Part shown: piece after piece, positions 56,040 through 56,909 of the stretch
Position numbering within the stretch: position 1 is the first letter of the stretch
Layout of the letters: each line of letters begins with the position of its first letter
Source: a virus
Lineage: Duplodnaviria; Heunggongvirae; Uroviricota; Caudoviricetes
Virus record (IMG/VR): IMGVR_UViG_3300042922_000270
Strand: one strand, 5' to 3'
Length of the DNA stretch: 64,000 nt
Notes under the pieces: generated by a model
The model's input: the letters and a program-made list of their open reading frames with translations, nothing else
What the model was told of the DNA's origin: nothing
Database searches by the model: none
Position numbers and translations under genes: made by a program

Positions 56040-56909
56040 TTATTTGTTACAAGTGTGTCCGTACATCACAGCCAGAACGATCTCTCCCCTAGCCTTAGCT
56101 GCTGCCTGCTCACAGGCATTACACTTAAGCTCTTGAACTAGAGCCTTGTCGTAAGTCAGAGAAAGGTCTGAGCCAACTGCAGCACGAGTAAAGGCTACCA
56201 ACTTGGCATCACCTAAAGCCTCTGCAACCGTCTTACTGTCATCTAGAACAAACGTCTGGTTAAGCAGGCAAACTCTAGAGTAGAACTTAGCCATACGACC
56301 AAGAACCATCTTCTCTTTAATCTCCTGAGGCTTAGACAGATGAGCTACTTCTTCCATTAGGAAGTTATACTCCTTCTCTTCTACCTCAGAAGGTACGTCT
56401 GCTCTGGAAACATATTGAGGGTTAGCCGCAGCAATGTGCATAGCAATCTTGTTAGCTAGGTCCACGTCGCCACCCTTAAGGTTAACTAGTGCACCAATCT
56501 TCTTGTTGCTATGGACATAACTACCAAAGACATCTCCGGGCATGCCGGACATATCAACCAGTGAAGACCCTACATTCTCTTTGAAAGCATTTCTACGAGA
56601 CCACATATCTTCAGGAGGAATGTTATAGTTAACACTATCCTGAGCATATTTGATAAAGTCGGCATTACGAGCTACAAAGTCGGTCTCACACTCAGTCTTC
56701 TCGATACGGTCGCCTGTGTCACTAATAACAACCACACCCTCAGAGGTAGTGCGGTTCTGGCGCTTCTCAGCATCTGCAAGTCCGGCTAGTCTTAGAATGT
56801 CTGTGGCTTTGTCCATATCACCATTAGCAGCTACGAGGGCCTTCTTACAGTCCATCATGCCCGCACTGGTGAGCTGTCTAAGCAGTTTAACGTCTTGAGC
56901 GGTGAACAT
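56040..56909 (-). CDS. tsf: translation elongation factor Ts (EF-Ts) homolog with Cys-rich C-terminal tail
   Basis: [31 protein letters not shown] matches the EF-Ts N-terminal signature ([12 protein letters not shown]); further collinear matches: [56 protein letters not shown]; C-terminus CNACEQ ... HTCNK. Confidence 0.85.
   Translation of the reverse strand: [289 protein letters not shown]

What the first reader, a model, noticed from the sequence alone, without database searches (positions are those of the whole stretch)
56040..56909. Phage-encoded elongation factor Ts (EF-Ts) homolog inside the tRNA array
The 289-aa protein aligns collinearly with bacterial EF-Ts by eye: N-terminal UBA-like [31 protein letters not shown], plus [39 protein letters not shown] and [17 protein letters not shown], which correspond to the E. 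coli Tsf core segments. It has an extra Cys-rich C-terminus (CNACEQ...HTCNK). It is flanked by tRNA genes and follows a membrane protein with a Ser/Gly-rich tail. Translation factors are rare in phages. A dedicated EF-Ts suggests the phage reshapes EF-Tu nucleotide exchange or recruits EF-Tu for another purpose. Qβ replicase uses EF-Tu/Ts, and EF-Tu is a known target of phage defence systems.
Basis: partly seen in the sequence, partly recalled or inferred. Interest (0 to 1): 0.8.

Follow-up and report, generated by a model that had tools for sequence, protein, structure and literature searches.

The report
Divergent EF-Ts gene in large phage
A large bacteriophage carries its own, highly diverged copy of the translation factor EF-Ts inside a cluster of tRNA and RNA-repair genes; it probably keeps host EF-Tu recharged during infection, which is a known but untested kind of phage gene, here with an unusual cysteine-rich tail.

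Summary
ORF 56040-56909 (-) encodes a 289-aa EF-Ts homologue: TIGR00116 208 bits (cut-off 104), Pfam EF_TS 5e-45, E. coli EF-Ts 1EFU_B 9e-45, and an AlphaFold model that matches only EF-Ts structures. It lies in a phage-like region where all genes share one strand, with PolA, nucleotide-metabolism and RNA-repair genes and 14 tRNAs. There is no rpsB upstream, although cellular tsf almost always follows rpsB. Its codon usage matches the rest of the window.

The N-terminal domain, the TDFV motif, subdomain C contacts and the coiled coil are conserved. The second half of subdomain N and the C-terminal module are not. A unique 40-aa tail (C263-x2-C266...H285-x-C287) has no homologue in 1.84 billion representative proteins.

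The protein is an orphan, at most 42% identical to anything found. The kind is not new: Al-Shayeb 2020 listed EF-Ts in huge phages, Caulobacter phage Colossus carries a fragment, and I found about five other EF-Ts lineages in phage contexts in IMG/VR, some next to tRNAs or tmRNA.

The most likely function is nucleotide exchange on host EF-Tu. An anti-defence or EF-Tu-shielding role is not excluded. Zinc binding by the tail is untested. Verdict: new member of a known kind, moderate interest.

The parts
56040..56909 (-). tsf-like CDS encoding a 289-aa EF-Ts homologue (stop codon included; a second TAA follows directly)
56748..56909 (-). N-terminal UBA-like (TS-N) domain, residues 1-54; EF-Tu-contacting R11, M18, M19 and K22 are conserved
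   Evidence: 26 of 53 aligned residues identical to E. coli; invariant columns; three helices in the AF2 model; Pfam UBA/EF-Ts_N hits fall below threshold
56673..56684 (-). TDFV motif (T76-D77-F78-V79), the catalytic Mg2+/nucleotide-displacing loop of EF-Ts
   Evidence: Invariant in all 30 cellular sequences and in the phage protein; role of the motif from PMC3747624
56547..56636 (-). Diverged, shortened second half of subdomain N (residues 92-121): 30 aa replace 49 profile positions, and the conserved A-K-I-G-E-N...R-R motif (E. coli I125/G126 contact) is not recognisable
   Evidence: The profile HMM of cellular EF-Ts leaves residues 92-121 unaligned; Pfam and TIGRFAM each match in two stretches; MAFFT places F109/K110 at I125/G126
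56160..56546 (-). Subdomain C of the core plus the coiled-coil hairpin (residues 122-250); domain-III contacts H133, I138, M157, A161 and V221 are conserved, and K166 is replaced by N153
   Evidence: AF2 pLDDT 86-96; 1tfe dimerisation domain TM 0.78, rmsd 2.2
56043..56159 (-). Orphan C-terminal tail (residues 251-289) with C263-x2-C266-x18-H285-x-C287, replacing the canonical C-terminal module
   Evidence: 2 of 19 identities to the E. coli C-terminal module; only a self-hit among 1.84e9 representative proteins; pLDDT below 50; no alternative frame encodes a canonical module
56914..56920 (-). Shine-Dalgarno-like GGTGGAG upstream of the tsf ATG; the start overlaps the upstream stop (TAATG at 56907-56911), consistent with translational coupling
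56909..57364 (-). Upstream co-oriented ORF of 151 aa with an N-terminal hydrophobic helix and a Ser/Gly/Asp-rich low-complexity tail; no family match
55962..56033 (-). tRNA-Trp(CCA) 6 nt downstream of the tsf stop; non-canonical (C at position 33, two G-U pairs in the acceptor stem)
   Evidence: ARAGORN; Rfam tRNA 30.2 bits against gathering 29; sequence
44579..63962 (-). Dispersed tRNA array of 14 tRNA genes, all co-oriented with tsf and interspersed with small ORFs and RNA-repair genes
54196..54276 (-). 81-nt tmRNA-like RNA comprising only the tRNA-like domain, 1.8 kb downstream of tsf (context; another potential EF-Tu ligand)
   Evidence: Rfam RF00023 56 bits against gathering 47; fold

Best explanation
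This is a genuine, intact and long-resident phage copy of elongation factor Ts, encoded by a large (contig about 208 kb) dsDNA phage of an undescribed lineage. It is probably transcribed with the surrounding tRNA genes and translationally coupled to the upstream ORF. Its most likely action is to bind the host's EF-Tu.GDP through the conserved N-terminal domain, the TDFV loop and subdomain C, expel GDP and so speed regeneration of EF-Tu.GTP. That would maintain the supply of aminoacyl-tRNA ternary complexes for the phage's own tRNAs while the host is shut down or under tRNA- or EF-Tu-directed attack. What is shown: the homology, the fold, the conserved contact residues, the phage context and the codon amelioration. 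What is inferred: binding to host EF-Tu, exchange activity and benefit to the phage. The remodelled half of subdomain N and the replaced C-terminal module probably change affinity or kinetics at the G-domain interface or add a phage-specific function. The Cys2-His-Cys tail may bind a metal, but this is not shown.
For: Family membership: TIGR00116 scores 207.9 bits against a cut-off of 104, PF00889 gives 5.3e-45, and 1efu_B gives 8.8e-45. The AF2 model has mean pLDDT 80, with residues 1-250 confident. Its top 20 Foldseek hits are all EF-Ts, including 1efu_B at 6.5e-21 and 1tfe at TM 0.78. Function-bearing residues: R12, M19, M20, K23, T79-D80-F81-V82, E127, H147, I151, M170, A174 and V234 are conserved (residue list from PMC3747624). 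The phage protein keeps 42 of 47 columns that are invariant in 50 cellular EF-Ts, although overall identity is only about 40%, which indicates purifying selection. Phage context: every ORF of at least 150 aa that has a family match is on the minus strand. The window encodes PolA, an SNF2 helicase, a clamp-like protein, a Pnkp-Rnl1 fusion, Rnl, a CCA-adding enzyme, ThyA, DHFR and dTMP kinases, all with PHROG matches, plus 14 tRNAs. It shares a Ter/PRTase/BCS1 module at 27-56% identity with Caulobacter phage Colossus. It is not a host fragment: the window has no rpsB, whereas 69 of 69 testable cellular loci have rpsB directly upstream. Codon adaptation (0.746) and GC (0.466) equal the window means of 0.730 +/- 0.042 and 0.464. 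Expression signals are an SD-like sequence and a TAATG overlap. Precedent: EF-G, EF-Tu and EF-Ts are listed in huge phages, with the hypothesis that they maintain translation efficiency (PMC7162821). Other EF-Ts genes in phage contexts lie next to tRNAs (L009, L014) or tmRNA (L017-L034).
Against: There is no biochemical evidence. The host, and therefore the partner EF-Tu, is unknown. The I125/G126 region of subdomain N is not recognisably conserved: 30 aa replace 49 profile positions, and the otherwise invariant Gly and Arg-Arg are lost. K166 is replaced by Asn. The C-terminal module is replaced (2 of 19 identities). EF-Ts is not normally limiting in fast-growing bacteria, which is general knowledge rather than something tested here, so a simple booster role is not self-evident. 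No structural or packaging genes lie in this 64-kb window, so phage identity rests on replication and accessory genes. The protein is a singleton, so conservation within its own lineage cannot be assessed.
Confidence: 0.6

Rival explanations
1. It is an EF-Tu-binding counter-defence or hijacking factor rather than a translation booster. The protein keeps enough of EF-Ts to clamp EF-Tu, through the N-terminal domain, TDFV and subdomain C. Its remodelled G-domain interface and new Cys/His tail would serve other ends: shielding EF-Tu from defence systems that cleave or co-opt it (Lit, type IV Thoeris, Avs7), denying EF-Tu/EF-Ts to toxins that need them, or tethering EF-Tu to a phage partner.
For: Two of the EF-Ts regions that touch the EF-Tu G domain in E. 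coli are the ones not conserved here. The tail is unique. The gene sits in an island of conflict and RNA-repair genes: Pnkp-Rnl1, Rnl, RlaP, cREC, an RNase T-like exonuclease, NADAR, the CCA-adding enzyme and Ter genes. EF-Tu is a documented defence hub, cleaved by Lit and type IV Thoeris and incorporated as EF-Tu.GDP by Avs7 (PMC13581612). CdiA-CT tRNase toxins require EF-Tu/EF-Ts (PMC9071432 abstract).
Against: The catalytic TDFV loop and 89% of invariant EF-Ts columns are retained, which a mere clamp or decoy would not need. There is no PADLOC or anti-defence family evidence. Some cellular EF-Ts also lack a C-terminal module (P0102 and P0112), so its absence is not in itself exotic.
Confidence: 0.2
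2. It is a decaying or functionally neutral passenger gene: a long-ago captured host tsf drifting towards loss, like the 98-aa EF-Ts fragment gp247 of Caulobacter phage Colossus.
For: Part of subdomain N and the C-terminal module have been lost or scrambled. It is a singleton with no relatives above 42% identity. A truncated precedent exists in Colossus.
Against: The 289-codon frame is intact with a proper start and SD. Conserved positions are strongly and selectively retained, 42 of 47 invariant columns against 40% overall identity. Residues 1-250 fold confidently. Codon usage is fully ameliorated, which implies long retention.
Confidence: 0.08
3. It is host DNA: a bacterial tsf on a misassembled, misbinned or prophage-flanking contig, as in many database 'phage' records.
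For: All INPHARED tblastn hits that were examined, and several IMG/VR hits, are of this kind, with rpsB-tsf on contaminated or prophage-edge records.
Against: There is no rpsB or other housekeeping neighbour here. On both sides for tens of kb lie co-oriented phage-type genes and tRNAs. GC and codon usage are identical to the neighbours. Identity to any cellular EF-Ts is at most 42%.
Confidence: 0.02

Closest known systems
Bacterial elongation factor Ts, long form (E. coli Tsf, PDB 1EFU chain B; TIGR00116 / PF00889)
   Same: The architecture is collinear over residues 1-250: UBA-like N-terminal domain, TDFV loop, core subdomains and coiled-coil hairpin. Identity is 38-39%. Most EF-Tu contact residues are conserved.
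   Different: It is not in the rpsB-tsf operon. The second half of subdomain N is about 19 residues shorter and unrecognisable to the profile. G126, the RR motif and K166 are not conserved. The C-terminal module is replaced by an orphan Cys2-His-Cys tail. The gene is encoded by a phage.
EF-Ts genes of huge phages (Al-Shayeb et al. 2020, PMC7162821) and the IMG/VR phage-context EF-Ts found here (L009, L011/L013/L014, L015, L017-L034, L023)
   Same: EF-Ts is encoded away from rpsB on large viral contigs, often beside tRNAs (L009 has 7 tRNAs around the gene; L014 has 3 tRNAs and a tail-fibre gene upstream) or beside tmRNA and an RlaP-like nucleotidyltransferase (L017-L034).
   Different: Identity to the window protein is only 27-39%, lower than to bacterial EF-Ts, so these are independent acquisitions. 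Most are short-form (about 195-205 aa). None has the Cys/His tail.
Caulobacter phage CcrColossus gp247, 'putative EF-Ts domain protein' (Gill et al. 2012, PMC3556154)
   Same: It is an EF-Ts-derived gene in a cultured phage. Colossus also shares the Ter/PRTase/BCS1/CCA-adding accessory module with this window at 27-56% identity.
   Different: gp247 is a 98-aa fragment without the N-terminal domain or dimerisation core, it has TDFA instead of TDFV, and it aligns to the window protein only over 36 aa at 28% identity.
Host EF-Ts as a subunit of Qbeta replicase (PDB 3MMP, 3AGP, 4R71)
   Same: The same protein family appears in a phage life cycle, and these structures are among the best sequence and fold hits.
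   Different: In Qbeta the factor is host-encoded and serves an RNA replicase. Here the factor is phage-encoded in a dsDNA phage with a family-A DNA polymerase, and no RdRp was seen.

Membership tests
EF-Ts (TIGR00116 tsf / Pfam PF00889) | Whole-protein profile score above the curated cut-off | tested here: met
   TIGR00116 scores 207.9 bits against 104.05. PF00889 scores 154 bits against 27.
EF-Ts (TIGR00116 tsf / Pfam PF00889) | N-terminal UBA-like (TS-N) domain carrying the EF-Tu helix-D contacts (E. coli R12, M19, M20, K23) | tested here: met
   All four residues are conserved and 26 of 53 positions are identical to E. coli. The AF2 model shows three helices at residues 4-41. The Pfam UBA and EF-Ts_N models alone fall below threshold.
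EF-Ts (TIGR00116 tsf / Pfam PF00889) | Strictly conserved TDFV motif (E. coli T79-V82, with D80 and F81 catalytic) | tested here: met
   T76-D77-F78-V79.
EF-Ts (TIGR00116 tsf / Pfam PF00889) | Subdomain N contact I125-G126 within the conserved IGEN..RR motif | tested here: not met
   The profile HMM leaves residues 92-121 unaligned. MAFFT places F109/K110 and S/S at these positions. HMMER's pairwise alternative (V113-G114) conflicts with the predicted strand.
EF-Ts (TIGR00116 tsf / Pfam PF00889) | Subdomain C contacts to EF-Tu domain III (H147, I151, K166, M170, A174, V234) | tested here: met
   Five of six are identical (H133, I138, M157, A161, V221); K166 is replaced by N153.
EF-Ts (TIGR00116 tsf / Pfam PF00889) | Core 'dimerisation' fold and coiled-coil hairpin | tested here: met
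   AF2 pLDDT is 86-96 for residues 122-250, with helices at 174-188 and 195-213. Foldseek gives 1tfe TM 0.78 at rmsd 2.2, and 1efu_B at E 6.5e-21.
EF-Ts (TIGR00116 tsf / Pfam PF00889) | C-terminal module (E. coli 264-282) of long-form EF-Ts | tested here: not met
   Only 2 of 19 residues are identical, and the module is replaced by an orphan tail. The module is also absent from some cellular EF-Ts (P0102 and P0112), so it is not universal.
EF-Ts (TIGR00116 tsf / Pfam PF00889) | Guanine-nucleotide exchange activity on EF-Tu | not testable with these tools
   This needs biochemistry or a multimer structure prediction with the host EF-Tu.
Cellular tsf locus | rpsB immediately upstream (rpsB-tsf operon) | tested here: not met
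   69 of 69 metagenomic EF-Ts loci with enough upstream DNA have rpsB. The window has none; the upstream gene is a TM/Ser-Gly-rich ORF.
Phage-encoded translation factors of large or huge phages (Al-Shayeb 2020) | Gene embedded in a bona fide phage genome | tested here: met
   The window carries phage replication, nucleotide-metabolism and RNA-repair genes with PHROG hits, a co-oriented compact layout and 14 tRNAs. It shares a module with Caulobacter phage Colossus. Caveat: no capsid or terminase gene lies in this 64-kb window, and the rest of the 208,594-bp contig was not available.
Qbeta-replicase-type use of EF-Tu/EF-Ts | RNA phage with an RNA-dependent RNA polymerase beta subunit that recruits EF-Tu/Ts | tested here: not met
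   This is a dsDNA element with a family-A DNA polymerase, and no RdRp was found among the ORFs scanned.
Zinc-binding C-terminal domain (zinc knuckle or ribbon) | Four metal ligands in a recognised fold or family | tested here: inconclusive
   The motif C263-x2-C266-x18-H285-x-C287 is present. There is no Pfam hit, no homologue, and pLDDT is below 50.

The most novel reading that the evidence does not exclude
The phage EF-Ts is not a simple booster but a re-engineered EF-Tu handle. It keeps the parts that grip EF-Tu and open its nucleotide pocket, but has rebuilt the G-domain-facing surface and gained a metal-binding Cys2-His-Cys tail. It would work together with the neighbouring phage tRNAs, the CCA-adding and repair enzymes and a TLD-only mini-tmRNA as one 'EF-Tu ligand island'. 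That island would either protect EF-Tu from defence systems (Lit, type IV Thoeris, Avs7) or channel EF-Tu preferentially to phage-encoded tRNAs.
Probability: 0.12. Interest if true: 0.75.

Novelty: new member of a known kind. Interest (0 to 1): 0.42.

Why it matters
Phage-encoded translation factors have been catalogued but never characterised, and it is unknown whether they boost, redirect or protect host translation. This copy is a clean candidate for that test. It is full length and clearly under selection. The catalytic loop and most contacts are intact, while two surfaces that face the EF-Tu G domain in E. coli are replaced, one by a unique Cys/His tail. It lies among tRNAs, tRNA-repair enzymes and a tmRNA-like RNA, all of which are EF-Tu ligands or their maintenance machinery. 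If the altered surfaces change specificity or protect EF-Tu from immune systems that target it, the gene would link two active fields: phage translation take-over and EF-Tu-centred defence. If it is only a spare exchange factor, it is one more example of a known trend in large phages.

Tried and rejected
1. Close relatives, sought to test conservation of the tail. The k-mer/HMMER search of 5.8e9 proteins found only the protein itself, then bacterial EF-Ts at 42% identity or less. The cluster is a singleton. IMG/VR and the metagenome scan gave 41% identity or less. The tail alone found nothing by k-mers and only itself in 1.84e9 representatives.

2. The source contig could not be retrieved, so the other 144 kb, including structural genes and any EF-Tu, were not examined.

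3. INPHARED 'phage' hits to EF-Ts looked like precedents. Those examined proved to be bacterial rpsB-tsf contamination or unverified records, so they were rejected as evidence.

4. IMG/VR hits with rpsB upstream (L001, L003/L007, L004/L016, L008) were rejected as host flanks of prophages.

5. Relatives of the phage itself were sought through PolA and the BCS1-like ATPase. Nothing in IMG/VR exceeded 36% identity, and none of those loci carried EF-Ts.

6. EF-Tu and rpsB were sought in the window and are absent.

7. A frameshift origin of the tail was rejected, because no canonical module appears in other frames.

8. The promoter and terminator scan near tsf found nothing on the coding strand above shuffle expectation.

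9. Colossus gp247 as an orthologue was rejected: 28% identity over 36 aa, with a different architecture.

10. The donor lineage or host could not be resolved from EF-Ts hits. Firmicutes-like (Orenia, Negativicutes, Bacillaceae) and Gammaproteobacteria (Gilliamella, E. coli) are all at 38-42% identity. The plasmid collection gave only chromosome-like replicons at 40% or less.
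Full report
**Observation.** The minus-strand ORF 56040-56909 is real: ATG start, 289 aa, and a double TAA stop.
- Profile and sequence searches leave no doubt about homology. NCBIfam TIGR00116 (tsf, equivalog) scores 207.9 bits against a curated cut-off of 104.
- Pfam EF_TS gives E 5.3e-45, and E. coli EF-Ts (1efu_B) gives E 8.8e-45 over residues 3-249.
- An AlphaFold2 model built on a 51-sequence alignment has mean pLDDT 80, with residues 1-250 confident.
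- By Foldseek, its top 20 PDB matches are all EF-Ts chains. 1efu_B scores E 6.5e-21, and the T. thermophilus dimerisation domain 1tfe scores TM 0.78 at rmsd 2.2 Å.

**Context: a phage, not a host fragment.**
- Every ORF of at least 150 aa that has a family match lies on the minus strand.
- Replication and nucleotide-metabolism genes include a family-A DNA polymerase with 3'-5' exonuclease, an SNF2 helicase, a clamp-like protein, thymidylate synthase, DHFR and thymidylate kinases.
- RNA-repair genes include a PNK-phosphatase-Rnl1 fusion (PHROG 8238, 743 bits), a second RNA ligase and a CCA-adding enzyme.
- Further accessory genes are an RlaP nucleotidyltransferase, a cREC domain protein, an RNase T-like exonuclease, NADAR, Ter-family proteins and a BCS1-like ATPase.
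- Fourteen co-oriented tRNAs lie between 44.5 and 64 kb.
- There is no near-identical DNA in INPHARED.
- The polymerase is only 26% identical to cyanophage polymerases, so the lineage is undescribed.
- A Ter/PRTase/BCS1/CCA-adding module is shared at 27-56% identity with Caulobacter phage Colossus and with Brevundimonas jumbo phages.
- The protein's only database record is a single JGI contig of 208,594 bp, which I could not retrieve.
- The window holds no capsid or terminase gene. That is the main caveat on phage identity.

**Why the gene is not cellular tsf.**
- Of 80 metagenomic EF-Ts loci, 69 have rpsB directly upstream. The other 11 simply lack upstream sequence.
- The window has neither rpsB nor EF-Tu.
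- Instead, the tsf ATG overlaps the TAA of a 151-aa ORF with an N-terminal hydrophobic segment and a Ser/Gly/Asp-rich tail (TAATG). A GGTGGAG Shine-Dalgarno-like sequence precedes it.
- A tRNA-Trp(CCA) begins 6 nt after the stop. The call is marginal: ARAGORN finds it, and Rfam gives 30.2 bits against a gathering score of 29.
- GC (0.466) and codon adaptation (0.746) equal the window's means of 0.464 and 0.730 ± 0.042. The gene has therefore been in this genome for a long time.

**Anatomy relative to E. coli EF-Ts.** I used the contact list summarised in PMC3747624 and an alignment that includes E. coli EF-Ts.

Conserved features:
- R12, M19, M20 and K23 of the N-terminal domain are retained.
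- T79-D80-F81-V82 is retained as T76-D77-F78-V79, and E127 is retained.
- The domain-III contacts H147, I151, M170, A174 and V234 are retained. K51 is replaced by R and K166 by N.
- The coiled-coil hairpin is complete and is the best-conserved part, with 23 of 49 residues identical.
- Of 47 columns invariant in 50 cellular EF-Ts, the phage protein keeps 42, although overall identity is about 40%. This is the signature of purifying selection for an EF-Ts-type function.

Parts that deviate:
- A profile HMM of cellular EF-Ts aligns residues 2-91 and 122-250 but leaves residues 92-121 unaligned. Thirty residues replace 49 profile positions, and these include the otherwise invariant I-G-E-N...R-R motif that carries the E. 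coli I125/G126 contact.
- The C-terminal module is not conserved (2 of 19 identities). A 40-residue tail with C263-x2-C266-x18-H285-x-C287 takes its place.
- In the E. coli complex, both deviating regions face the EF-Tu G domain (PMC3747624).
- The tail has no homologue among 1.84 billion representative proteins other than the protein itself. AlphaFold gives it pLDDT below 50, and no alternative frame encodes a canonical module. Zinc binding is therefore a motif-level hypothesis only.

**How unusual is it?** As a sequence it is an orphan. The best matches in 5.8 billion proteins, in IMG/VR and in the metagenome collection are bacterial EF-Ts at 40-42% identity, spread over Firmicutes-like and gammaproteobacterial taxa with no identifiable donor. 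As a kind it is not new.
- Al-Shayeb et al. (2020) list 'elongation factors G, Tu and Ts' among huge-phage genes and propose that they maintain translation efficiency (PMC7162821).
- Gill et al. (2012) describe a 98-aa EF-Ts fragment, gp247, in Caulobacter phage Colossus (PMC3556154). It aligns to the present protein over only 36 residues.
- A profile-guided scan of IMG/VR returned 30 loci. I removed the rpsB-adjacent host flanks.
- The remainder form about five EF-Ts lineages in phage-like contexts.
  - L009 is a 334-aa protein on a 446-kb contig, flanked by seven tRNAs and an R2K ATP-grasp gene.
  - L011/L013/L014 are short-form; L014 lies just after a tail-fibre gene and three tRNAs.
  - L015 is on a 536-kb contig, and L023 is a further separate lineage.
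  - L017-L034 is a large cyanobacterial-type group in which EF-Ts is followed by an RlaP-like nucleotidyltransferase and a permuted tmRNA.
- These proteins are 27-39% identical to the window protein, which is less than bacterial EF-Ts are, so the captures were independent. The recurring neighbourhood of tRNA, tmRNA and RNA-repair genes is nevertheless notable.
- The INPHARED records that appeared to be phage EF-Ts are contaminated with bacterial rpsB-tsf, in the cases I examined.

**Mechanism.**
- The best-supported reading (confidence about 0.6 for the mechanism, above 0.95 for 'genuine phage-encoded EF-Ts homologue') is a working exchange factor for host EF-Tu. It would be expressed with the tRNA array and would sustain ternary-complex supply during infection.
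- Homology, fold, conserved residues, context and amelioration are shown here. Binding, catalysis and benefit to the phage are inferred.
- The main rival (about 0.2) is an EF-Tu-directed counter-defence or hijacking role. Supporting it: the remodelled G-domain-facing regions, the orphan tail and the surrounding conflict and repair genes. The literature also shows that EF-Tu is cleaved by Lit and type IV Thoeris and is co-opted in its GDP form by Avs7 (PMC13581612).
- Against the rival, a mere clamp would not need the intact TDFV loop.
- Decay (about 0.08) and host contamination (about 0.02) are unlikely, for the reasons given above.
- A Qbeta-like role is not supported, because this is a dsDNA phage with its own DNA polymerase.

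**Verdict.** It is a new, highly divergent member of a known but uncharacterised kind. Interest is moderate (0.42). The value lies in its being a clean experimental candidate, and in the altered interface and tail.

Noticed in passing
window 54196-54276 (-); IMG/VR loci L147-L202: An 81-nt RNA matches Rfam tmRNA (56 bits, gathering 47) but consists only of the tRNA-like domain: acceptor stem with G3:U70, T-arm, discriminator A, no encoded CCA, no tag ORF and no pseudoknots. A strict pattern found similar 78-84-nt elements in 56 IMG/VR viral contigs (36 unique sequences), with covarying acceptor and central stems. There is a precedent: mycobacteriophage DS6A carries a 'TLD only' tmRNA, and a similar molecule strongly inhibits tmRNA, perhaps by titrating SmpB (PMC4131195). 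This looks like an under-described, recurrent phage RNA family. No SmpB was seen in the window.
   Followed up: partly
window 44579-44652 (-): A tRNA with anticodon CTA (amber-suppressor type; ARAGORN labels it 'Pyl'; Rfam tRNA 54.6 bits). TAG still ends 12 of 68 ORFs of at least 100 aa, so there is no evidence of genome-wide TAG recoding in this window.
   Followed up: partly
window 57956-58044 (-): An 89-nt tRNA (Rfam 37 bits) with a 33-nt insertion in the anticodon region. ARAGORN could not assign an anticodon. It may be an intron-containing or otherwise atypical tRNA.
   Followed up: no
window 24840-28837, 38581-39804, 46787-49533, 54471-55393 (-): An extensive RNA-repair and conflict gene set surrounds the tRNAs. 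It comprises RlaP, a PNK-phosphatase-Rnl1 fusion (47% identical to the SPbeta-like Bacillus phage protein), a PHA02142-type RNA ligase, a CCA-adding enzyme with an HD domain, NADAR, a cREC 'cyclic-phosphate processing' receiver domain and an RNase T/Rv2179c-like exonuclease.
   Followed up: partly
window 30606-34854 and 41492-42250 (-); Colossus NC_019406.1 170-200 kb (L203, L204): The window carries a tellurite-resistance-type module: a PRTase-like protein, a hydrolase, TerC/DUF475, TerD-like proteins and a TerF-like vWA protein. Its members that match Colossus do so at 32-56% identity. The PRTase-like protein also matches Brevundimonas jumbo phages at 46-55%. This hints at a distant relationship or at an alphaproteobacterial host, but neither is established.
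   Followed up: partly
IMG/VR loci L017-L034: A group of viral contigs (up to 279 kb) carries a cyanobacterial-type short EF-Ts of about 200 aa. An RlaP-like nucleotidyltransferase lies about 1 kb downstream in many of the loci, and a permuted tmRNA with tag ANKIVKFERTAVAV lies 3-4 kb downstream in several. No rpsB is nearby. This is a conserved phage 'translation rescue' cassette that may deserve its own study.
   Followed up: partly
INPHARED records CAKLQF020000002.1 (Acinetobacter phage MD-2021a), OQ572403.1 (Pseudomonas phage Y1, UNVERIFIED) and others: Records labelled as phages contain ordinary bacterial map-rpsB-tsf neighbourhoods. They are therefore bacterial contigs or contaminated assemblies and should not be counted as phage EF-Ts.
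   Followed up: yes
protein P0002 (503 aa, ENA metagenome): The second-best database hit is a tandem-duplicated EF-Ts with two N-terminal domains and two cores in one chain. Its origin was not examined.
   Followed up: no
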